Source of the DNA: an uncultured Verrucomicrobiae bacterium
GTDB taxonomy: Bacteria; Verrucomicrobiota; Verrucomicrobiia; Limisphaerales; Palsa-1400
Length of the DNA stretch: 64,000 nt
Direction of reading: 5' to 3'
NCBI GenBank assembly: GCA_963702845.1
Contig: OY969763.1
Span: 5,440,001 to 5,504,000 of the forward strand
The stretch's first letter is position 1. Every line of letters begins with the position of its first letter. A program made the position numbers and the translations under genes. This document shows, one piece after another, positions 52,878-61,311 of the stretch. A model generated the notes under the pieces. The model was given only the letters and a program-made list of their open reading frames with translations, did not search any database and had not been told where the DNA came from.

Positions 52878-53234
52878 ATGACAATCTTAACGGACGTTTC
52901 ATCGGCGCTGCTGCGACGGGCGGTTCAATTGAAGGAGCAAATCGAGGGACTGGAGAAAGAGTTGAATAACATTCTCGGTCAAACCAGCCCTAAGCGCAGC
53001 ATGGCGATGACGCGAAGCCGCCCGGGTATCAGTCCGGCTGGACGCGCGCGGATTGTCGCCGCACAAAAACGCCGCTGGGCGATGCATCGGGCCCAGGCCA
53101 AAGCCGCAACCCGATCCAGCAGCAGCGCGCGCATAGCAACAAAAGCACCGAAAGGTGGCATCCCCCCCCAACTACGCGCCAAATTGGCCGCCCAGGCAAA
53201 AGCTCGTTGGGCCAAAGTTAAGTCGATGGGCTGA
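52878..53234 (+). CDS. Small basic protein, possibly nucleoid-associated
   Basis: N-terminal coiled coil plus two R/K-rich repeats (GRARIVAAQKRRWA and LRAKLAAQAKARWA). Confidence 0.7.
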   Translation: MTILTDVSSALLRRAVQLKEQIEGLEKELNNILGQTSPKRSMAMTRSRPGISPAGRARIVAAQKRRWAMHRAQAKAATRSSSSARIATKAPKGGIPPQLRAKLAAQAKARWAKVKSMG

Positions 53235-53363
53235 CCAAAAGCGTTTCGATTTCCTGCAACAGTTGCGTCCCACTCAATTCTCTAACGCCCCGACGAACGA
53301 TTCTCTGTATTCGCCGGTCGCTCGGCAGCACCTCAGCAAACGGTGACCGAGTGATGGCTCGGA

Positions 53364-53564
53364 TTAGTCACGTCGCTTTGCTGGAACAACACACCAGCCG
53401 AGACAAGCGAAGTAAATCAACACCGAAACAAGAGAGACCCACTTCCCGACCGTAAAAGCAGGCGGACGATACTCCATTTTCAAGAGATGATGGCCAGCGG
53501 CCAACGGCACTGCGCGCAAACAAAGTAATCCTCGAATCACCGCCCCAACCCGCGCCTGATTCAC
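53364..53564 (-). pseudogene. C-terminal fragment of a YfhO-like membrane protein
   Basis: LRAVPLAAGHHLLKMEYRPPAFTVGKWVSL plus a final TM helix; upstream portion absent. Confidence 0.6.
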
Positions 53565-53799
53565 GGTGGAGATGATAAGAGTTATGTTAAATGACGGAAT
53601 TCAAAAAAGAGTTTTTAAATGGATTAGCGCGCCTTCAGACAGCCTGGAACATTGATGTCAATTAGTCCACGACAGAGCCGGGTGCGGTAACACTGAATTA
53701 AAAAACGATTTCCCTTGGATTACCGGCACTTCAGACAATGAGCGCCCCGTTGTGTCAAGTATTACACGACAGAGCTTTTACGGTTTTCCCTGAAAACAG

Positions 53800-53818
53800 A
53801 ACCGGCGGAACCCCGATT
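53800..53818. promoter_or_regulatory. Palindromic site upstream of GH25 copy 1 (also at 56016-56034, 57135-57153, 58189-58207, 59242-59260)
   Basis: Consensus AATCGG-N7-C(C/T)GATT followed by GT in five of the six upstream regions. Confidence 0.6.
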
Positions 53819-53896
53819 GTTGTTTTTGTCAAATAGTTCACTGTGGCGTTGTCCCATGAAAACCCACGACGAGTGGCCAAGAACCTTTGTGCCGCC

Positions 53897-53959
53897 ACGA
53901 TGTCTTGTACCGTTTGCAGGCCGGTGCTCGAGATCGTCTCCATAACAAAAGCAGCCTGC
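53897..53959 (+). ncRNA. Candidate cis-regulatory pseudoknot, GH25 copy 1 leader (type B)
   Basis: Stem ACGA/TCGT, TCTTG/CGAGA, GTACCG/CGGTGC; loop GCAGGC pairs with downstream GCCTGC. Confidence 0.55.
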
Positions 53960-53985
53960 CGACAAAAAGCAAAAAACAAAAAGCA

Positions 53986-54745
53986 ATGAAAACGATCATT
54001 AAAACCTCGTTAGGGTTGGTTGCGGGATTGGCGCTGTCGTTTACCGGCATGCAAGCCAAAGCTAACAACACGACCCACAGTCTCCTCGGCATTGATGTCT
54101 CCAGCTATCAAGGTTTCGTCACATGGGCAGCGTCCATGGTGACGGCGTAGCGTTCGCATTCGCCCGCGCCACTGAAGGAACCGCCAGCAACGACTCGGAT
54201 TTCTCCGGCAACATGAGCCGCGGCAAAAGCGCTGGTGTGAAATGGGCGCTTATCACTTCGCCTATCCAGCCGAAGGGTGCCCCAGCGTGCAGGCCAATCA
54301 CTTCTGGTCTATCGCCGGCGGCAAAATCACCGCTGACGGCAAATCAGTCATGCCGATGGTGGATTGCGAAGAATTCACTGGTGTTGGCTGCTCCGAAGGC
54401 ACCTACACCACCTGGTACAATGATTGGGCGACAGACCTCAAGACTCATTCTTCTGGCCTGCGTCCTGTCATCTATGTCAGCGCCTGCAATGCGTCTCACT
54501 TGACCACCGGCATCGCGGACTTGGGTGCATGGATTGCCGACTACAATGGCGGCAACCTGTATACCGGCAACCCATGGACCACCTGCTGTGGTGACTGCCG
54601 CTGGGGTTCCACCTCCTGCAACAACAACACCTGGACCTACTGGCAGGTCAGCTCCACTGGAGCGATCAGCGGTATCTCCGGCAACGTCGACCTCGATGCC
54701 TACAATGGCACCTTGGCCCAGTTGACCTCCTGGCAAGGTGTCTAA
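53986..54745 (+). CDS. Secreted GH25 muramidase, copy 1 (two 1-nt frameshifts near 54126 and 54241, likely errors)
   Basis: Signal peptide, GIDVSSYQG, RATEG, GAYHF, DCE, WQVSSTG, VDLD. Confidence 0.85.
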
Positions 54746-54760
54746 TCTAGTTTGAAGCAA

Positions 54761-54790
54761 GCCCGCGCGAGGCCAAAACCTCGCGCGGGT
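54761..54790 (+). terminator. Terminator-like hairpin after GH25 copy 1
   Basis: GCCCGCGCGAGG-CCAAAA-CCTCGCGCGGGT; weak T-tract. Confidence 0.7.
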
Positions 54791-54922
54791 CTCACATTGT
54801 CGAACCCATAAGTCGTCACAATCAACAAAAAGCAAAAAGCGCCTGAACCCAACAGGCATTTAAGCTGTTCGTTTGAAATTTTTTCAGTAGCGAAACTAAG
54901 TGCGTTAGTGATCTCTGAGTTT

Positions 54923-55008
54923 GAGTCCAGAGCGCGTGCTTTGGCGGCCTTGCAGGAGGACGCTTAAGTCCGTGAACCAAACTAAAAAACAACCTGCAAT
55001 GACGGAAA
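54923..55008 (+). ncRNA. Candidate pseudoknot, GH25 copy 2 leader (type A)
   Basis: GAGTCCAGAG, 18-bp imperfect stem, loop TGCAGG pairing with CCTGCA, then ATGACGGAAA. Confidence 0.6.
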
Positions 55009-55020
55009 GATAACAATAAA

Positions 55021-55785
55021 ATGAAACGCAGTACTCTAGTTACATACGCACTTGGCATTGTTGCCTCCGCAGCCCTTCTCGGTGCTACGGAAGTTCGCGC
55101 TAACAACACGACCCACAGCCTTCTCGGCATCGACGTCTCCAGCTATCAAGGTTTCATCACCTGGAGCAGCGTCAAAGGTGACGGCGTTGAGTTCGCATTC
55201 GCCCGCGCCACTGAAGGAACCGCCAGCAACGACTCGGATTTCTCCGGAAACATGACCCGCGGCAAAAGCGCTGGTGTGAAGATGGGCGCTTATCACTTCG
55301 CCTATCCAGCCGAAGGGTGCCCCAGCGTGCAGGCCAATCACTTCTGGTCTATCGCCGGCGGCAAAATCACCGCTGACGGCAAATCAGTCATGCCGATGGT
55401 GGATTGCGAAGAATTCACTGGTGTTGGCTGCTCCGAAGGCACCTACACCACCTGGTACAATGATTGGGCAACAGACCTCAAGACTCATTCTTCTGGCCTG
55501 CGTCCTGTCATCTATGTCAGCGCCTGCAATGCGTCTCACTTGACCACCGGCATCGCGGACTTGGGTGCATGGATTGCCGACTACAATGGCGGCAACCTGT
55601 ATACCGGCAACCCATGGACCACCTGCTGTGGTGACTGCCGCTGGGGTTCCACCTCCTGCAACAACAACACCTGGACCTACTGGCAGGTCAGCTCCACTGG
55701 AGCGATCAGCGGTATCTCCGGCAACGTCGACCTCGATGCCTACAATGGCACCTTGGCTGACTTGACGTCCTGGCAGGGTGTGTAA
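55021..55785 (+). CDS. Secreted GH25 muramidase, copy 2
   Basis: Same motifs, intact. Confidence 0.92.
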   Translation: MKRSTLVTYALGIVASAALLGATEVRANNTTHSLLGIDVSSYQGFITWSSVKGDGVEFAFARATEGTASNDSDFSGNMTRGKSAGVKMGAYHFAYPAEGCPSVQANHFWSIAGGKITADGKSVMPMVDCEEFTGVGCSEGTYTTWYNDWATDLKTHSSGLRPVIYVSACNASHLTTGIADLGAWIADYNGGNLYTGNPWTTCCGDCRWGSTSCNNNTWTYWQVSSTGAISGISGNVDLDAYNGTLADLTSWQGV

Positions 55786-55810
55786 TCCTGACCTGACTGT
55801 TTGTTAATTC

Positions 55811-55843
55811 AACCCGCGCGGATGAAAGTCCGCGCGGGTTTTT
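55811..55843 (+). terminator. Rho-independent terminator
   Basis: AACCCGCGCGGA...TCCGCGCGGGTTTTT. Confidence 0.85.
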
Positions 55844-56152
55844 ACATTCCTATCAGATTTTCGTCGACAGCCCATGTCAACAGAACCGCTACAAATCACG
55901 TTCTTTCTCACGCTCAATGAGCGTGATGTTCTTTCTCGAAAGCAGTATCAGGTTTCACCGCGAATTATTGTCAATTTAAGTTCGACACACCAATTACGCT
56001 TTTTGCTGAGTAGCGAATCCGCATAGACCTGATTGTTCCTCGGAACGGAAAAGTCCATTGTCTTGCCCGTTACCCGAGCGATAAAAAAGCACTGAACCCA
56101 CCAGCGCTCCTCCAGCGGTCCATTCGCGTGGATCTCAGTCTGATTTGAATTT

Positions 56153-56235
56153 GAGTCCAGAGTGCGTGTTCTGTACGGCGCGCAGGAAGACGTTACAGAA
56201 CACGATAAAACAAAAAAATCCTGCAATGACGGAAA
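56153..56235 (+). ncRNA. Candidate pseudoknot, GH25 copy 3 leader (type A)
   Basis: Stem CGTGTTCTGTA/TACAGAACACG; loop GCAGGA pairs with TCCTGC. Confidence 0.6.
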
Positions 56236-56242
56236 CCACTAA

Positions 56243-57004
56243 ATGAAACGTAATCTAATACAAAAGATCCTCGGCATCTGTGCGGCTGCAACACTGCTCG
56301 GAACCACCGGCGCTCGCGCCAATAACACCACCCACAGCCTCCTCGGCGTGGACGTTTCGAGCTATCAAGGCTCAATCAACTGGAGCAGTGTTTACGGTGA
56401 CGGCGTCCGCTTCGCGTCTGCCAAAGCCACCGAGAGCACCGGTTACACCGATGCCTATTTCGCTGGCAACATGAACAACGGCAAAGCCGCAGGCTTGCAG
56501 ATGTGTGCATACCACTTCGCCCATCCTGAATCCACCTGTCCAAGTGCACAAGTGAACCACTTCTGGTCTGTCGCCGGCAGCAAGATCACCGCAGACGGCA
56601 AATCGGTTTATCCGATGGTCGACTGCGAAGTCTTCAGCGGCGTCACCTGCAGTGAAGGCACCTACACCACGTGGTACAACGACTACTCCACTGACCTGAA
56701 GGCCAAGACGGCCAACTTCCTGCACCCGGTCATCTACGTCAGCGCCTGCGCTGCCAGCCACCTGAGCACCGCGATCACGCTCTCGGCCTGGATCGCCGAC
56801 TACAACGGCGAGAACCTCTACACCGGTAATCCTTGGACCACCTGCTGCGGCGACGACCGTTGGGGTTCCACCTCCTGCAACGCCAACACCTGGACCTACT
56901 GGCAAGTCAGCAGCACCGGCGCTATCAGCGGCATCTCCGGCAACGTTGACCTCGATGCCTACAACGGCACCTTGGCTGACTTGATCTCGTGGCAAGGAGT
57001 GTAA
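56243..57004 (+). CDS. Secreted GH25 muramidase, copy 3
   Basis: GVDVSSYQG, KATES, DCE, VDLD. Confidence 0.92.
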   Translation: MKRNLIQKILGICAAATLLGTTGARANNTTHSLLGVDVSSYQGSINWSSVYGDGVRFASAKATESTGYTDAYFAGNMNNGKAAGLQMCAYHFAHPESTCPSAQVNHFWSVAGSKITADGKSVYPMVDCEVFSGVTCSEGTYTTWYNDYSTDLKAKTANFLHPVIYVSACAASHLSTAITLSAWIADYNGENLYTGNPWTTCCGDDRWGSTSCNANTWTYWQVSSTGAISGISGNVDLDAYNGTLADLISWQGV

Positions 57005-57028
57005 TCTGATCTGAGTTTGTTATACTGC

Positions 57029-57059
57029 ACCCGCGCGGACGCAAGTTCGCGCGGGTTTT
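57029..57059 (+). terminator. Rho-independent terminator
   Basis: ACCCGCGCGGAC-GCAA-GTTCGCGCGGGTTTT. Confidence 0.85.
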
Positions 57060-57204
57060 CTCTTTTCGGAAGGCCGGCTGAACACCATGTCAAATTTAAC
57101 ACGACACAGCACCTCAGCCTTTTGCTCACCGCCGAACCGGCTGATGCCTGATTGTTTGATTGTACCACAAAGTCCAAAGTGGGCTGTTCCCAAAACCTAA
57201 CGCC

Positions 57205-57282
57205 GGCAAACGATTGTCGTTCGCCCGAAGTTTGTCTCTGGTTGCAGACTGGACAAAGTTCGCCTACTAAAAGCACCTGCAA
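57205..57282 (+). ncRNA. Candidate pseudoknot with a 5' accessory hairpin, GH25 copy 4 leader (type B)
   Basis: GGCAAACGA/TCGTTCGCC hairpin; CGAAGTTTGT/ACAAAGTTCG stem; TTGCAG pairs with CTGCAA. Confidence 0.55.
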
Positions 57283-57302
57283 AAAAGCAAAAAACAAAAA
57301 GC

Positions 57303-58052
57303 ATGAAAACCACTAAATTACTCCTTGCTGCGCTCGCGTTGTCCCTCGGGGCTACTCTGGCGCAAGCTAACAATACGACTCACAGTCTCCTCGGAATCGA
57401 CGTGTCGCACTATCAAGGCGGCATCACCTGGAGCAGTGTTTACGGCGACGGCGTCCGTTATACCTTTGCCAAAGCTGTCGAAGGCACCGGTTATACCGAC
57501 CCTAACTTCAGCTCTTACGCCAGCGGTGCTAAAGCAGCTGGTTTGAAGTTTGGCGCCTATGACTTCTGCCATCCAGAATCCGGCTGCCCAAGTGCCGAAG
57601 TCAACCACTTCTGGTCGGTTGCTGGTGGCAAGATCACCGCTGACGGCAAGTCCCTCTATCCGATGCTCGACTTGGAAGTGTTCTCCGGTGTTGCTTGCGG
57701 TGAAGGCACCTACACCGGATGGTCCAACGACTGGTCAACCGATGTCAAAGCGAAGACCGGCAACTTCCTGCATCCGGTTATCTATATCAGCGCATGCAAT
57801 TGCTCCCACCTGAGCACTGCTATCACGCTGTCTGCCTGGATTGCGGACTACAACGGCCAGAACCTCTACACCGGTAACCCGTGGAGCACCTGCTGCAGCT
57901 ACGACCGTTGGGGCTCCACCGCCTGCAATGCCAACACATGGACCTACTGGCAGGTCAGCTCGACCGGTCGCATCAGCGGCATCTCCGGCAACGTTGACCT
58001 CGATGCCTACAACGGCACCTTGGCTGAATTAACGTCCTGGCAAGGTGTTTAG
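57303..58052 (+). CDS. Secreted GH25 muramidase, copy 4
   Basis: GIDVSHYQG, KAVEG, DLE, VDLD. Confidence 0.92.
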   Translation: MKTTKLLLAALALSLGATLAQANNTTHSLLGIDVSHYQGGITWSSVYGDGVRYTFAKAVEGTGYTDPNFSSYASGAKAAGLKFGAYDFCHPESGCPSAEVNHFWSVAGGKITADGKSLYPMLDLEVFSGVACGEGTYTGWSNDWSTDVKAKTGNFLHPVIYISACNCSHLSTAITLSAWIADYNGQNLYTGNPWSTCCSYDRWGSTACNANTWTYWQVSSTGRISGISGNVDLDAYNGTLAELTSWQGV

Positions 58053-58082
58053 TCTGGCAACCTGAAGCTGTTCCTATACTGC

Positions 58083-58115
58083 AACCCGCGCGGGTGAAAA
58101 CTCGCGCGGGTTTTT
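58083..58115 (+). terminator. Rho-independent terminator
   Basis: AACCCGCGCGGGT-GAAA-ACTCGCGCGGGTTTTT. Confidence 0.85.
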
Positions 58116-58260
58116 ACGTATTCAAAACGTGCTTATCGCACTGTCGATAACAACGTGACAGGGCAGTTCAGCTTATTACTGACTGCTGAATCGACTGACG
58201 CCTGATTGTATATTTTACAGCAAGGCTCAGAGTCGCACTGTTCCAAAAAAAACCAACGTC

Positions 58261-58340
58261 GGCAAACTATTGTCGTTTGCCCGAAGTTTGTCTCTGGTTG
58301 CAGACTGGACAAATTTCGCCTCACTAAAAAGTAACTGCAA
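58261..58340 (+). ncRNA. Candidate pseudoknot with a 5' accessory hairpin, GH25 copy 5 leader (type B)
   Basis: GGCAAAC/GTTTGCC hairpin; CGAAGTTTGT/ACAAATTTCG stem; TTGCAG pairs with CTGCAA. Confidence 0.55.
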
Positions 58341-58358
58341 TTAAGCAAAAAACAGAAA

Positions 58359-59123
58359 ATGAAACGCACTACTCTAGTCCAAAATGCCCTTGGCATCGTC
58401 GTCGTCGCCGCCCTCACCTTGGGCGCGACCTCCCTCCGAGCTAACAATACCACGCACAGCCTCTTGGGCGTGGACGTCTCAAGCTATCAAGGCTCCATCA
58501 CCTGGAGCAGCGTCTACGGTGATGGCGTCCGTTTCGCGTCTGCCAAAGCCACCGAAAGCACCGGTTATACCGATGCTTATTTCTCCGGCAACATGAACAA
58601 CGGCAAAGCCGCCGGTTTGCAAATGTGCGCGTATCACTTCGCCCATCCCGAATCCACCTGCCCAAGCGCGCAAGTGAATCACTTCTGGGCAGTCGCCGGT
58701 AGTAAAATCACTGCGGACGGCAAGTCGATCTACCCGATGGTTGATTGCGAAGTCTTCAGCGGCGTGACCTGCGGTGAAGGCACATACAATACCTGGTACA
58801 ATGACTATGCTGCCGATCTCAAAGGCAAAACCTCATTGTTCCTGCACCCAGTCCTCTACACCAGCGCGTGCAGTGCCTGCCATCTGAGCAGCGCCACCAC
58901 GCTCTCGGCTTGGATCGCGGACTACAACGGCCAGAACCTCTACACTGGTAACCCTTGGACGACGTGCTGCTCCTGTAACGTCTGGGGCGGCGGTTGCAAT
59001 GCCAACACCTGGACCTACTGGCAGGTTAGCAGCACCGGTGCCATCAGCGGCATCTCCGGTAACGTCGACCTCGATGCCTATAACGGCACCTTGGCTGAAT
59101 TGGTGTCCTGGCAGGGTGTCTAA
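58359..59123 (+). CDS. Secreted GH25 muramidase, copy 5
   Basis: GVDVSSYQG, KATES, DCE, VDLD; 10 Cys. Confidence 0.92.
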   Translation: MKRTTLVQNALGIVVVAALTLGATSLRANNTTHSLLGVDVSSYQGSITWSSVYGDGVRFASAKATESTGYTDAYFSGNMNNGKAAGLQMCAYHFAHPESTCPSAQVNHFWAVAGSKITADGKSIYPMVDCEVFSGVTCGEGTYNTWYNDYAADLKGKTSLFLHPVLYTSACSACHLSSATTLSAWIADYNGQNLYTGNPWTTCCSCNVWGGGCNANTWTYWQVSSTGAISGISGNVDLDAYNGTLAELVSWQGV

Positions 59124-59153
59124 TCCTTCCCTGACTACATTTCAAAACTGCAC

Positions 59154-59183
59154 CCCGCGCGAAGCAACACTCGCGCGGGTTTT
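59154..59183 (+). terminator. Rho-independent terminator
   Basis: CCCGCGCGA...TCGCGCGGGTTTT. Confidence 0.8.
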
Positions 59184-59303
59184 CATTTTTGCACTGTCAA
59201 GCGAACCATTACTTGTATGTCAATAATACATCTACACGCCAAATCGGGGTTTGCCTGATTGTGGTTTTGTGGGAAATGTAGAAACTCACCTCGTTCCCAA
59301 CAC

Positions 59304-59390
59304 GAGTCCAGAGCGCGTGTTTCATTTTGCTTGCAGGAGCGATTTGAAAATCCGTGAAGTAAATCAGTAAATCTCCTGCATTGACCGAAA
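59304..59390 (+). ncRNA. Candidate pseudoknot, GH25 copy 6 leader (type A)
   Basis: GAGTCCAGAG; stem CGCG/CGTG, TTTCA/TGAAA, TTGCT/AGCGA; loop TGCAGG pairs with CCTGCA; then TTGACCGAAA. Confidence 0.6.
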
Positions 59391-59398
59391 GTAGTATA

Positions 59399-60166
59399 AT
59401 GAAACGCAGTAATCTGATCAAAAACGTACTTGGACTAGTAGCTGGCGTCGCCCTCCTGGGGGCTTCGGAAGCACGCGCAAACAATACCACCCACAGCCTT
59501 CTCGGCATTGACGTCTCCAGTTTTCAAGGTTTCGTCACCTGGAGCAGCGTCAATGGTGATGGCGTTGCCTTCGCGTTCGCTCGCGCTACTGAAGGAACCG
59601 CGAGCAATGATTCCGATTTCTCCGGAAACATGACCCGAGGTAAAAGCGCAGGCGTGAAAATGGGCGCTTATCACTTCGCCTATCCAGCCGAAGGCTGCCC
59701 CTCAGTCCAAGCCAGTCACTTCTGGACTCAAGCCGGTAGCAAAATCACGGCTGATGGCAAGTCGCTCATGCCGATGGTTGACTGTGAAGAGTTCACTGGT
59801 ATCGGCTGCTCTGAAGGCACCTACACCACCTGGTACAATGATTGGGCCGCAGACCTCAAGACCCACACGACCTTGACCCTGCGTCCAGTTATTTATGTCA
59901 GCGCCTGCAATGCCTCGTTTTTGACTACCGGCATCTCGGGTTTGGGCGCTTGGATCGCCGATTACAATGGCCAAAACCTCTACACCGGCAACCCATGGAG
60001 CACCTGCTGCGGCGACGACCGTTGGGGTTCCACCTCCTGCAATGCCAACACCTGGACCTACTGGCAGGTTAGCAGCACGGGTGCCATCAGCGGCATCTCC
60101 GGTAACGTCGATCTCGATGCCTATAACGGCACCTTGGCTGATTTGACCTCCTGGCAAGGTGTGTAA
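59399..60166 (+). CDS. Secreted GH25 muramidase, copy 6
   Basis: GIDVSSFQG, RATEG, DCE, VDLD. Confidence 0.92.
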   Translation: MKRSNLIKNVLGLVAGVALLGASEARANNTTHSLLGIDVSSFQGFVTWSSVNGDGVAFAFARATEGTASNDSDFSGNMTRGKSAGVKMGAYHFAYPAEGCPSVQASHFWTQAGSKITADGKSLMPMVDCEEFTGIGCSEGTYTTWYNDWAADLKTHTTLTLRPVIYVSACNASFLTTGISGLGAWIADYNGQNLYTGNPWSTCCGDDRWGSTSCNANTWTYWQVSSTGAISGISGNVDLDAYNGTLADLTSWQGV

Positions 60167-60223
60167 GAAACAGTTTGAAGCGTCTGTTCTAATATAAAGC
60201 GTTAGGACAAGCGTCGGATTCAT

Positions 60224-60259
60224 AACCCGCGCGAGTTTTAAAATTCGCGCGGGTTTTTT
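60224..60259 (+). terminator. Rho-independent terminator
   Basis: AACCCGCGCGAGTTT...AAATTCGCGCGGGTTTTTT. Confidence 0.85.
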
Positions 60260-60340
60260 GTGAAAATATTATCTAAAAATTTGAGAAAAATATCGCCTTA
60301 AGTGGTCTATCCGATAAACTAAAAACACATCACCGGCCCC

Positions 60341-61311
60341 ATGAAAAGTGTCCGCTATTAGCAATTTTCGTCCTGAATTCAGTTTTGATTTCGGCCTTGC
60401 TGATCCGCTTGGACCCGAATGCGCCGGTTAAACCGCCGCCTACGCCACCGAAACCTGATCGCGAGAAGACGAGTTATGCGATCGGCATGAATCTCGGCCT
60501 GCAGCGCAAACAGGCCAAGTCCGACGCCGATATCGAAGCCTTCGCCAAAGGGCTGAAGGAAACTTTTCGAAAATAAACCGACCGAGATTCCTTTCACCGA
60601 CACGATGCAGGCCATCAATGCCATGCGCACACAGCGGCACCAACGCCACCGCGCAGGAGAAGCGAATGTTTGCTTACGCCATGGGCATGCGCTGGGGCAA
60701 TCAACTTGAAAGGAAAATGCTCCCGATTGTGATACCGCTGTTGTTGTTCGGCCATAAAAGATGTCGCTGACGGCAAGCCGACTAAGATCAAGGAAGCCGA
60801 AATGCAACCTTTGCTCGAACAGGGCCGGGAGTGGTCTCTTTATATCAAAGGCGCAAAAAATCGTGAGGCAGGCGCGGCTTTTCTGGCTGCGAATGTCCAA
60901 GCAACCCGGCGTGCACAATCTCCCCGATGGCTTGCAATATCGAGTCATCAAAGAAGGCACCGGCCGGGCGGCCAGCACCCTTGGATGAACACGAAGTCCT
61001 CTTTATCAGATACAAAGGAACATTCATTGATGGTCGTGAATTTGATCATCATAACCATTTCCCGAAAAATCTCCTCGGTGGCTGGCCTGCCTGGCTTGAA
61101 GCCCTCAAACGCATGAAAGTTGGCGACAAATGGCAGGTTTATTCTCCGCCCGAGTATTCATTTGGCCGCGACGGCGACCCGTCTCGTCAATGTCGGTCCG
61201 GATACCACAGTCGTTTGGGATTTGGAAATTCGCGAAATCGTTGGTGACGATGATCCACGCTTGGGCACCGGCCGGCTCGGTCACGGTATTGCCGGACGCG
61301 ACAATCCGTAA
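60341..61311 (+). CDS. FKBP-type peptidyl-prolyl isomerase (FkpA/Mip-like, apparently duplicated N-domain), heavily frameshifted
   Basis: Fragments EKTSYAIGMNLG, LPDGLQYRVIKEGTG, YKGTFIDGREFD, EALKRMKVGDKWQVYSPPEY. Confidence 0.75.

What the first reader, a model, noticed from the sequence alone, without database searches (positions are those of the whole stretch)
53897..59390. Candidate new cis-regulatory RNA: the same H-type pseudoknot precedes all six GH25 start codons
Seen: every leader has a long hairpin whose stem sequence varies but still pairs (e.g. CGTGTTCTGTA/TACAGAACACG in copy 3; TTTCA/TGAAA and TTGCT/AGCGA in copy 6; CGAAGTTTGT/ACAAATTTCG in copy 5). The terminal loop always carries GCAG, followed after an A-rich linker by CTGC about 18-26 nt before the ATG. 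The loop pairing covaries: GCAGGC/GCCTGC (copy 1), TGCAGG/CCTGCA (2, 6), GCAGGA/TCCTGC (3), TTGCAG/CTGCAA (4, 5). Inference: a conserved fold under selection, possibly a riboswitch, a translational enhancer for starts lacking an SD, or an mRNA stabiliser. I cannot match it from memory to c-di-GMP-II, SAM-II, preQ1, pistol or twister.
Basis: partly seen in the sequence, partly recalled or inferred. Interest (0 to 1): 0.85.

Follow-up and report, generated by a model that had tools for sequence, protein, structure and literature searches.

The report
Conserved pseudoknot leader on lysozyme genes
Six neighbouring lysozyme-type (GH25) genes of a soil Verrucomicrobium, and their relatives elsewhere, each carry the same folded RNA leader just ahead of the start codon; it matches no catalogued RNA family and probably controls how these enzymes are made.

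Summary
All six GH25 genes (the first is frameshifted) have a leader with a variable hairpin (P1). Its loop GCAG(G) is complementary to CUGC 18-26 nt before the ATG (P2).

The motif is not confined to this array. A covariance model built from 23 leaders finds 9 copies in this 6.03-Mb genome, all upstream of GH25 genes. It finds 5 in one sister MAG and leaders on 13 of 55 metagenome GH25 contigs, giving 29 distinct full-length copies. It finds none in about 330 other Verrucomicrobiia genomes.

Both helices covary:
- P2: 4 of 7 pairs carry compensatory changes, including GCAG/CUGC to ACAG/CUGU twice.
- P1, in one 6-member subtype: 8 of 15 pairs are compensatory, with 86% of cells paired against 37-57% for slid partners.

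The sense strand folds better than the antisense strand. Rfam 15 gives no hit at E<=10.

The fold does not sequester the start codon, and no leader terminator was found. My reading is a new 5'-UTR pseudoknot acting at translation initiation. Its nearly invariant P2 helix is probably recognised by an unknown factor. A constitutive enhancer or stabiliser, or a riboswitch, remains possible.

The transcription start, the coexistence of P1 and P2, and the function are all untested.

The parts
53897..53937 (+). Copy 1, P1 hairpin (ACGAU...AUCGU). The loop holds GCAGGC at 53916-53921, which is the P2 5' strand.
   Evidence: Sequence; constrained folds; type-B stem covariation.
53954..53959 (+). Copy 1, P2 3' strand GCCTGC, 26 nt before ATG 53986. 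The gene (53986-54745) is frameshifted.
   Evidence: the frameshift is seen.
54933..54974 (+). Copy 2, P1 hairpin. The loop UGCAGG includes the P2 5' strand TTGCAGG at 54950-54956.
54993..54999 (+). Copy 2, P2 3' strand CCTGCAA, 23 nt from the end of CTGC to ATG 55021.
56165..56204 (+). Copy 3, P1 hairpin (CGTGTTCTGTA.../...TACAGAACACG). The P2 5' strand GCAGGA lies at 56182-56187.
   Evidence: energy z -3.8.
56219..56224 (+). Copy 3, P2 3' strand TCCTGC, 18 nt before ATG 56243.
57226..57262 (+). Copy 4, P1 hairpin (CGAAGTTTGTC/GACAAAGTTCG). The P2 5' strand TTGCAG lies at 57242-57247.
57277..57282 (+). Copy 4, P2 3' strand CTGCAA, 22 nt from the end of CTGC to ATG 57303.
58282..58318 (+). Copy 5, P1 hairpin (CGAAGTTTGTC/GACAAATTTCG). 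The P2 5' strand TTGCAG lies at 58298-58303.
58335..58340 (+). Copy 5, P2 3' strand CTGCAA, 20 nt from the end of CTGC to ATG 58359.
59314..59356 (+). Copy 6, P1 hairpin (CGCG..TTTCA..TTGCT / AGCGA..TGAAA..CGTG). The P2 5' strand TGCAGGAG at 59332-59339 overlaps the top of P1 by 2 nt.
59373..59380 (+). Copy 6, P2 3' strand CTCCTGCA, 19 nt from the end of CTGC to ATG 59399.
55021..60166 (+). Five intact secreted single-domain GH25 genes served by the leaders: 55021-55785, 56243-57004, 57303-58052, 58359-59123 and 59399-60166. Each is followed by a GC-rich terminator-like hairpin.
   Evidence: Pfam PF01183 at E 1e-28 to 1e-32; terminator scan.

Best explanation
This is a real, previously uncatalogued structured RNA in the 5' untranslated leader of GH25 muramidase mRNAs. 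I call it the GH25-leader pseudoknot.

Anatomy:
- P1 is a long hairpin of variable sequence, median about 14 bp.
- P1 presents GCAGG in its loop, flanked by 0-3 spare nucleotides in most copies.
- A 13-19-nt linker follows in most copies (median 16). It is about half A.
- CCUGC then pairs with the loop to form P2, giving an H-type pseudoknot topology.
- An unstructured A-rich stretch of 12-26 nt runs on to the AUG.

Most likely mechanism (inferred, not shown): the element acts after transcription, at translation initiation. It sits at the 5' edge of the ribosome landing zone of mRNAs that lack a classical Shine-Dalgarno sequence. Its nearly invariant P2 helix is the recognition site for a trans-acting factor, most likely an RNA-binding protein. 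That factor helps or blocks 30S loading on the adjacent open A-rich region. The result would be coordinate control of the small secreted GH25 genes.

Shown: both helices are conserved by compensatory change, the element is exclusive to GH25 genes, and its spacing to the AUG is constrained.

Inferred: that the hairpin is transcribed, that P1 and P2 coexist, that the target step is translation, and that a trans factor exists.

I put about 0.85-0.9 on 'conserved functional RNA structure'. The 0.45 below is for the whole statement including the mechanism.
For: P2:
- In the unfitted MAFFT alignment of 23 leaders, 87.9% of cells pair, against 24-46% with slid partners.
- 4 of 7 pairs carry changes on both sides. 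The covariation score is 0.139 against a shuffle mean of 0.068, reached by 0 of 500 shuffles.
- The result is the same on 30 distinct rows.
- The core G-C becomes A-U in two copies of different subtypes: L018 ACAGGA/UCCUGU and L045 ACAGG/CCUGU.

P1:
- With the core held unpaired, the minimum-energy fold encloses it in a hairpin in 28 of 29 copies.
- All 29 energy z-scores are negative, 19 of 29 are at or below -2, and the mean is -2.44.
- In the six type-B leaders a 15-bp stem is 85.6% paired (slid partners 37-57%), and 8 of 15 pairs are compensatory; 0 of 500 shuffles reach its covariation score.
- A model-fitted alignment of all copies gives 67.3% paired against 36-47% slid, with covariation 0.418 against 0.218.

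Strand: the sense strand is more stable than the antisense strand in 19 of 29 copies. The mean difference is -3.0 kcal/mol, Wilcoxon p 0.002, on related sequences. The type-B stem has 14 G-U cells against 2 A-C cells.

Specificity:
- 9 of 9 model hits in the 6.03-Mb genome precede GH25 genes, three of them dispersed at 0.49, 1.21 and 5.34 Mb.
- There are 5 hits in sister MAG G001 and hits on 13 of 55 metagenome GH25 loci.
- The proteins behind these leaders have diverged to 41-55% identity.

Spacing and geometry:
- The end of CUGC lies 12-26 nt from the AUG in 26 of 27 copies that have a gene.
- Median L1 is 2 nt, L2 1 nt, L3 16 nt. The L3 A fraction is 0.49 against 0.23 for the genome.

P1 covaries freely while the three central P2 pairs never vary in 29 copies. 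That contrast argues for sequence-specific recognition of P2.
Against: - No transcript data exist, so a start site downstream of the hairpin is not excluded. The sigma-70 consensus scan found no + strand promoter in 53500-60400.
- No candidate binding protein was identified. CsrA was not found.
- The element hides neither the AUG nor an SD. Leader-to-start-region complementarity is not general: mean z -0.30, with only 3 of 27 copies at z<=-2. How binding would change expression is therefore conjecture.
- All copies may descend from one leader-plus-gene unit. The 'regulon' could reflect co-duplication rather than shared regulation.
- The copies are related, so the shuffle controls overstate significance.
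- P2 covariation rests on few events: 2 sequences at the core pair, and 3-5 at the flanking pairs.
- In several copies (copy 6, L013, L050, L058, L059) the extended P2 overlaps the top 2-3 bp of P1. The two helices may therefore partly compete.
- Type-D copies (L007, L024, L057) have a short linker of 0-8 nt that is not A-rich.
- The global P1 alignment is crude. It includes one likely spurious row (L008:1803-1856, E 0.24). Its count of 12 of 12 compensatory pairs was reached by 68 of 500 shuffles.
Confidence: 0.45

Rival explanations
1. Constitutive element. The pseudoknot needs no partner. It either protects the mRNA from 5' decay or keeps the A-rich landing zone unstructured and serves as a standby or S1-docking site, so that SD-less GH25 mRNAs are translated efficiently.
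For: - No alternative fold or expression platform was found: no leader terminator and no general pairing with the start region.
- Classical SD motifs are rare in this genome. GGAG occurs at -10..-6 in 72 of 2255 crude starts.
- The stretch from P2 to the AUG is A-rich, and so is the L3 linker.
- Recalled, not tested: SELEX ligands of ribosomal protein S1 fold as pseudoknots, and 5' hairpins such as that of ompA stabilise mRNAs.
Against: - A purely structural role does not explain why the three central P2 pairs never vary in 29 copies while P1 covaries freely.
- A general enhancer should appear on other highly expressed genes, yet all 9 genome hits are on GH25 genes.
- A stabiliser should sit at a fixed distance from the 5' end. 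That distance cannot be checked, and the upstream regions differ greatly in length between copies.
Confidence: 0.25
2. Small-molecule or second-messenger riboswitch. A ligand stabilises the P1-P2 pseudoknot, as in preQ1-I or SAM-II, and so changes translation of secreted lysozymes. The ligand might be a cell-wall fragment or a cyclic dinucleotide.
For: - The topology is a hairpin, an A-rich linker and a 3' strand pairing with the loop close to the start codon. Recalled: this is the topology of the known H-type pseudoknot riboswitches.
- Recalled: c-di-AMP (ydaO) and c-di-GMP riboswitches control cell-wall hydrolases and secreted enzymes.
- The motif is exclusive to one functional gene class.
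Against: - No Rfam family matches at E<=10.
- Outside P2 no unpaired position is conserved. The nucleotides 5' of GCAGG and the linker vary freely, so no conserved pocket is visible.
- P1 length varies widely.
- P2 does not overlap an SD or the AUG, and no terminator follows.
- The distribution is very narrow: 2 of 31 family genomes, 0 of 150 other order genomes and 0 of 150 other class genomes. That is unusual for a metabolite sensor.
Confidence: 0.15
3. DNA-level element. TGCAGG...CCTGCA is an inverted repeat bound by a transcription factor, or part of the promoter. The hairpin is then incidental or not transcribed.
For: - The two P2 halves are an inverted repeat with a conserved sequence.
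- The transcription start is unknown, and other conserved DNA boxes lie upstream.
Against: - The spacing between the halves varies from 28 to 43 nt, which is poor for a dimeric site.
- Compensatory changes in both halves (ACAGG/CCUGU, GGCAGG/CCUGCC, GCAGAC/GUCUGC) are expected for pairing, not for protein half-sites.
- The intervening P1 stem covaries with many G-U pairs, and the sense strand folds better.
- The fixed 12-26 nt distance is to the AUG, not to a promoter.
Confidence: 0.05
4. No present function. The leader is inherited baggage of a recently amplified gene family, and the apparent structure is a relic.
For: - All copies are attached to paralogous or orthologous GH25 genes.
- Leaders persist next to a frameshifted gene (window copy 1) and where the gene is gone (L018:888-991, L047:20-127).
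Against: - The proteins behind the leaders have diverged to 41-55% identity, and P1 stems are rewritten beyond recognition while pairing is kept.
- Neutral decay would have destroyed a 14-bp stem and a 5-bp long-range helix.
Confidence: 0.05

Closest known systems
H-type pseudoknot riboswitches (preQ1-I, SAM-II/SAM-V, guanidine-III); comparison recalled, membership tested by Rfam
   Same: A hairpin whose loop pairs with a 3' segment after an A-rich linker, placed just upstream of the start codon in a 5' UTR.
   Different: - No Rfam match at E<=10.
- P1 is 2-3 times longer and free in sequence.
- No conserved unpaired pocket nucleotides.
- The P2 3' strand ends 12-26 nt before the AUG and does not cover an SD.
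- The genes served are secreted lysozymes, not metabolic genes.
Protein-bound translational operator pseudoknots: phage T4 gene 32 mRNA and E. coli rpsO (S15) leader (recalled)
   Same: A 5'-UTR pseudoknot next to an unstructured A/U-rich initiation region. The pseudoknot is the nucleation or recognition site, and control is exerted on 30S loading rather than by hiding the AUG in a helix.
   Different: - Those are autoregulated by their own nucleic-acid-binding product.
- Here the product is a secreted enzyme, so a separate, unidentified regulator would be needed.
- No sequence similarity was tested or expected.
ydaO (c-di-AMP) and c-di-GMP-II riboswitches; lysM RNA motifs (recalled as cis-RNAs upstream of cell-wall hydrolase or peptidoglycan-binding genes)
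   Same: A structured leader dedicated to cell-wall-degrading or cell-wall-binding secreted proteins.
   Different: - None of these Rfam models matches the region.
- This motif is much smaller and simpler.
- It is confined to one Verrucomicrobiia genus-level clade plus environmental contigs.
5' stabiliser hairpins and A/C-rich translational enhancers (ompA-type, CA-repeat enhancers; recalled)
   Same: A stable 5'-UTR structure followed by an A-rich unstructured ribosome landing region in an SD-poor context.
   Different: - Those need no conserved long-range loop pairing.
- The invariant GCAGG/CCUGC helix and its restriction to GH25 genes have no counterpart.

Membership tests
Any Rfam 15 family (4227 models) | A covariance-model match at or near the gathering score. 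| tested here: not met
   cmscan of 53000-60500 on both strands at E<=10 gave 6 chance-level matches (E 2-6). They fall on terminators or coding sequence, none on a leader.
H-type pseudoknot (structural class) | Stem 1 hairpin maintained by compensatory change. | tested here: met
   - Type B: 8 of 15 pairs compensatory, 85.6% paired against 37-57% slid.
- All copies: 67.3% paired against 36-47% slid.
- The hairpin encloses the core in 28 of 29 copies.
H-type pseudoknot (structural class) | Stem 2 between the hairpin loop and a downstream single strand, maintained by compensatory change. | tested here: met
   - 87.9% paired against 24-46% slid.
- 4 of 7 pairs compensatory.
- 0 of 500 shuffles reach the covariation score.
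- RNAalifold picks this helix as the consensus.
H-type pseudoknot (structural class) | Both stems form at once, with connecting loops long enough to span them. | tested here: inconclusive
   - Loop lengths are plausible: median L1 2 nt, L2 1 nt, L3 16 nt.
- The extended P2 overlaps the top of P1 in several copies.
- Type D has L3 of 0-8 nt.
- Simultaneous formation needs probing or a solved structure.
Riboswitch (functional class) | Conserved unpaired nucleotides forming a ligand pocket. | tested here: not met
   In alignments A3 and A5 the only invariant columns are CAG and CTG of P2. The loop flanks and the linker vary.
Riboswitch (functional class) | An expression platform: a terminator, or SD/AUG sequestration that alternates with the aptamer fold. 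| tested here: not met
   - No terminator-like site lies inside any leader.
- Leader-to-start-region duplexes are no better than shuffles: mean z -0.30, with 3 of 27 at z<=-2.
Riboswitch (functional class) | Specific ligand binding. | not testable with these tools
   Needs in-line probing or ITC.
CsrA/RsmA-bound leader | GGA in a hairpin loop plus a second GGA at the RBS, with a CsrA protein encoded in the genome. | tested here: not met
   - The loop has CAGGA in 19 of 29 copies, but CAGGC or CAGA in 10.
- The downstream GAC-N-GAAAG box has GGA in only some copies.
- Pfam CsrA PF02599 was not found in the single-contig genome; its marker completeness is 89.8%.
Protein-operator pseudoknot (T4 gene 32 / S15 type) | Specific binding of a regulatory protein to the pseudoknot, with translational repression. 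| not testable with these tools
   No partner is known. This is a working analogy only.

The most novel reading that the evidence does not exclude
The GH25-leader pseudoknot is a sensor that switches on a battery of secreted lysozymes in a bacteriolytic soil Verrucomicrobium. It would be either a riboswitch for a cell-wall-derived or second-messenger ligand, or the operator of a dedicated RNA-binding regulator. It would act together with a transcription-factor box (TGTCAA-N7-10-ACGACA) upstream of the same genes. That would be a new RNA class controlling a predatory or peptidoglycan-scavenging regulon.
Probability: 0.2. Interest if true: 0.8.

Novelty: new variant of a known kind. Interest (0 to 1): 0.62.

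Why it matters
Verrucomicrobia are abundant in soil, and little is known about their post-transcriptional control. This leader would add an RNA family with covariation support for both helices, tied to an unusual target: about nine of roughly 21 GH25 muramidase loci in one genome. It gives a concrete handle on three questions. How are SD-poor mRNAs of this phylum recruited to ribosomes? How is a large set of secreted lysozymes co-regulated? Is a ligand or a protein involved? The element is short, about 100 nt, and modular, so the pseudoknot can be tested directly with compensatory mutations.

Tried and rejected
- **Known RNA family.** Rejected. Rfam at E<=10 shows nothing on the leaders.
- **Descriptor scan.** A loose scan (perfect stem of 5 bp or more, 6-bp P2) gave about 3000 genome hits, and more on the reversed sequence. 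It was too unspecific and was dropped. With an ORF filter, 7 of 154 candidates were GH25.
- **RNA-seq and TSS evidence.** No RNA holder was listed for window:53600-60300.
- **Start-codon sequestration by the P1 5' strand.** Copy 6 shows a striking 10-bp match and L050 and L007 score well, but this is not general: mean z -0.30 over 27 copies. Rejected as the common mechanism.
- **CCUGC pairing with the GCAG of the codons AAA-CGC-AGU at +8.** Only 4 bp across a 30-nt loop, and absent in copies 1, 3, 4 and 5. Rejected.
- **CsrA target.** The CsrA family was not found, and GGA is not universal.
- **Phage origin.** No close viral relative. One locus at 27% identity came from 50 pattern matches.
- **uORF-based control.** The AUG inside CCUGCAAUGACG gives short uORFs in copies 2 and 3 and in L050 and L049b. 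The AUG is missing in L013, L021, L047 and L051. Not a shared feature.
- **One consensus P1 for type A or type E by MAFFT plus RNAalifold.** Failed, with zero pairs, because the stems differ in register. The model-fitted alignment A7 was used instead.
- **Locus L009 (G000 2.519 Mb).** It looked like a weak copy by eye: UGCAGU/GCUGCA, 34 nt from the AUG. The model does not find it at E<=1. Left out of all counts.
- **Earlier notes of this scan.** Two look-ups returned nothing.
- **Literature.** Two full-text searches found no description of such a leader. Terms were Verrucomicrobia/GH25/muramidase/pseudoknot/cis-regulatory RNA, and candidate structured RNAs/Verrucomicrobia/lysozyme/motif. Only the listings and abstract starts were seen.

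Full report
**What is at the coordinates**

Window 53897-60166 holds six tandem, same-strand genes of glycoside hydrolase family 25. The five intact ones match Pfam PF01183 at E 1e-28 to 1e-32. They encode proteins of about 250 aa with an MK(R/T)... signal-peptide-like N-terminus. Their ATGs lie at 55021, 56243, 57303, 58359 and 59399.

The first gene (ATG 53986) is split over three frames. Each gene is followed by a GC-rich terminator-like hairpin, so each has its own intergenic leader of 250-400 nt.

The window is G000:C1:5440001-5504000 of a single-contig 6.03-Mb genome. Titles of near relatives call it a Verrucomicrobiia bacterium.

In every leader a hairpin (P1) carries GCAG in its loop, and a CTGC lies 18-26 nt before the ATG. 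Exact coordinates are given under parts.

RNAalifold on a plain MAFFT alignment of 23 leaders returns the loop-to-downstream helix as its only consensus helix.

**It is not confined to the array**

The upstream regions of dispersed GH25 paralogs in the same genome show the same design with other flanking pairs:
- UUUGCAGG/CCUGCAAA at 1.21 Mb
- GCAGGCGU/ACGCCUGC at 0.49 Mb
- GCAGAA/UUCUGC at 5.34 Mb

I built covariance model R1 from 23 leaders, with 7 P2 pairs. Its results:

| Search | Result |
|---|---|
| Own genome, E<=1 | 9 matches, all directly upstream of GH25 genes (150 of 1165 first-look candidates scored) |
| Family, 31 genomes | 2 with matches: G000 (9) and same-genus MAG G001 (5) |
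| Order, 150 other genomes | 0 |
| Class, 150 other genomes | 0 |

The second same-genus MAG, G002, has no match; it is 67% complete. The order and class searches used stricter filters and sampled genomes.

A protein-based metagenome scan gave 55 GH25 loci. R1 finds a leader on 13 of them, twice on L045, L047 and L049.

Over the 91 sources searched there are 31 matches. One is a duplicate of the same contig (L027 = L024) and one is cut at a contig end (L046). That leaves 29 distinct full-length copies:
- 6 in the window
- 3 elsewhere in G000
- 5 in G001
- 15 on metagenome contigs

GH25 homologues below about 50% identity, and the multidomain GH25 paralogs of G000, lack the motif. About 9 of roughly 21 GH25 loci in G000 carry it. 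No close viral relative exists.

**P2 is supported by covariation**

On the unfitted alignment A3:
- 87.9% of cells pair, against 24-46% when partners are slid by 1-3 columns.
- 4 of 7 pairs have changes on both sides; 6 of 500 shuffles reach this.
- The covariation score is 0.139 against 0.068 for shuffles; 0 of 500 reach it.

The 30-row model alignment gives the same picture. Individual pairs behave as follows:
- The first core pair is G-C 26 times and A-U twice, and never unpaired.
- The next three pairs (C-G, A-U, G-C) never vary in 29 copies.
- The fifth pair is G-C 22, A-U 3, G-U 2 and unpaired 2.
- The flanking pairs switch between U-A/C-G/G-C and between A-U/C-G, but are unpaired in about 40% of copies.

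The two A-U core variants lie in different leader subtypes (L018 and L045), so they are probably independent events.

**P1 is supported more strongly**

With the five core bases held unpaired, the minimum-energy fold encloses the core in a hairpin in 28 of 29 copies; L008 is the exception. All energy z-scores against shuffled flanks are negative. Their mean is -2.44, and 19 of 29 are at or below -2.

The cruder measure, number of enclosing pairs, beat 95% of shuffles in only 8 of 29 copies.

The stems differ so much between subtypes that MAFFT cannot put them in one register. Two alignments get around this:
- Six type-B leaders: a 15-bp stem is 85.6% paired (slid partners 37-57%). Of the 15 pairs, 8 are compensatory (4 of 500 shuffles reach this). 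Covariation is 0.516 against 0.242 (0 of 500).
- Alignment A7, fitted to a second model (R2): over all copies, 67.3% paired against 36-47% slid, and covariation 0.418 against 0.218 (0 of 500).

A7 leans towards the structure and contains one probably spurious row. Its count of 12 of 12 compensatory pairs was reached by 68 of 500 shuffles.

**RNA rather than DNA, sense rather than antisense**

The sense strand folds more stably than its reverse complement in 19 of 29 copies. The mean difference is -3.0 kcal/mol with Wilcoxon p 0.002, on related sequences.

The type-B stem has 14 G-U cells against 2 A-C cells. The distance between the two P2 halves ranges from 28 to 43 nt. That suits an RNA linker and not a dimeric DNA site.

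**Geometry**

From, with genome composition:

| Element | Value |
|---|---|
| P1 | median about 14 bp |
| L1 | median 2 nt |
| L2 | median 1 nt |
| L3 | median 16 nt |
| A fraction of L3 | 0.49 (genome 0.23) |

This fits an H-type pseudoknot with an A-rich strand lying along the P1 groove. There are two complications. In copy 6, L013, L050, L058 and L059 the longer P2 (up to 10 bp) uses bases that also close P1. The three type-D copies have a short linker that is not A-rich. Whether the helices coexist or partly alternate is open.

**What it does not do**

- No terminator-like site lies within a leader.
- The leader does not generally pair with the start region. The mean z is -0.30, and only copy 6, L050 and L007 stand out.
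- Classical SD motifs are rare genome-wide, although the 16S rRNA ends in ...GGAUCACCUCCUUUCU.
- Type-A leaders carry GAC-N-GAAAG 9-14 nt before the AUG. GAAAG is about 3-fold enriched at -15..-6 genome-wide. It could pair with the 3'-terminal CUUUC of 16S rRNA; this is inference.
- The end of CUGC lies 12-26 nt from the AUG in 26 of 27 copies that have a gene, and 64 nt in L008.

**Mechanism**

The evidence points to a cis-acting RNA placed at the upstream edge of the ribosome landing zone. P1 drifts by compensatory change while the centre of P2 is frozen. From that contrast I infer that P2 is read sequence-specifically by an unknown factor that modulates 30S loading. This works like the T4 gene 32 or S15 operators (recalled), without being a member of those systems.

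A partner-free enhancer or stabiliser role is nearly as likely. A small-molecule riboswitch is less likely, because no unpaired nucleotide outside P2 is conserved and there is no expression platform. A DNA operator or neutral baggage is unlikely.

CsrA is not encoded as far as Pfam can see. No regulator gene flanks the array. The neighbours are citrate synthase, succinyl-CoA ligase, glycerate kinase, a glycosyltransferase and ABC transporter genes.

**Novelty**

There is no Rfam match. Two full-text literature searches found nothing (listings and abstract starts only). Earlier notes of this scan held nothing.

This is a new RNA family of a known general kind, a structured 5'-UTR pseudoknot. 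Its phyletic range is narrow and its gene association is unusual.

**What remains open**

- The transcription start. No RNA run was listed, and the sigma-70 scan found no + strand site.
- Whether P1 and P2 form at the same time.
- The regulatory input.
- Whether copies that have lost their gene (see noticed in passing) still act.

Noticed in passing
window 53986-54745: The first GH25 gene of the array is broken. Its reading frame shifts twice (ORFs 53887-54150, 54123-54503, 54242-54745). The 3' two-thirds is 98% identical in protein to copy 2, which suggests recent gene conversion or duplication. Its leader is intact.
   Followed up: partly
L018:888-991 (- strand; G001 contig C379) and L047:20-127: A type-B (copy-1-like) leader survives without its gene. 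In G001 it is followed by a 9-codon relic ORF, and in L047 by no ORF at all. In both, a type-A leader plus an intact GH25 gene comes about 200 nt later. Either the gene was recently deleted, or the orphan leader has a role of its own, for example as part of a long 5' UTR or as an sRNA.
   Followed up: partly
window 53747-53766, 57094-57113, 58150-58168, 59213-59235 and counterparts in L013, L018, L021, L044, L050: A conserved palindrome-like box, TGTCAA-N7-10-ACGACA (TGTC...GACA), lies upstream of many leader-bearing GH25 genes. It is followed about 15-60 nt later by CCTGATTG, and about 30 nt after that by GTYCCMA. These are candidates for a transcription-factor site, a -35-like element and the start-proximal region. 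Copies 2 and 3, L018a, L047a and L051 have a different, longer upstream region.
   Followed up: partly
window 54921-54936, 56151-56166, 59304-59319 and type A, D and E leaders elsewhere: A conserved box, (U)GAGUYCAGAGCGCGUG, lies immediately 5' of P1. In some copies its CCAGAG pairs with an upstream CUCUGG to give a further small hairpin (copy 2, L018a, L047a). Its role is unknown.
   Followed up: no
window 54999-55013 and 56226-56246: Short upstream ORFs begin at the AUG inside CCUGCAAUGACG. Copy 2 encodes M-T-E-R-stop. In copy 3 the 6-codon uORF ends in a UGA that overlaps the main AUG (AUGA). L050 and L049b are like copy 3. In copy 6 and L018a an in-frame UUG or GUG sits at the same place. 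The feature is absent in L013, L021, L047 and L051.
   Followed up: partly
G000 whole genome: The genome holds about 21 GH25 loci (24 tblastn pieces). Many are multidomain proteins of 500-1400 aa, including clusters near 0.05 Mb and 1.79 Mb. That is an unusually large lysozyme complement and suggests a bacteriolytic or peptidoglycan-scavenging lifestyle.
   Followed up: no
window 55811-55840, 57029-57056, 58087-58115, 59154-59179, 60224-60255: The terminator hairpins after the GH25 genes share nearly the same stem (ACCCGCGCG...CGCGCGGGT). The duplicated unit therefore includes leader, gene and terminator.
   Followed up: no
L039:560-640, L052:1-60: More distant GH25 homologues that lack the GCAG/CUGC motif carry other long, perfect hairpins in their leaders, followed by the same kind of A/C-rich run before the ATG. 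A structured leader followed by an A-rich run may be a wider habit of these genes.
   Followed up: no
G000 genome-wide start regions: Classical SD motifs are rare: GGAG at -10..-6 in 72 of 2255 crude starts. The 16S rRNA keeps a canonical CCUCCUUUCU 3' end. GAAAG is about 3-fold enriched at -15..-6. Start calls were crude, so the numbers are diluted.
   Followed up: partly
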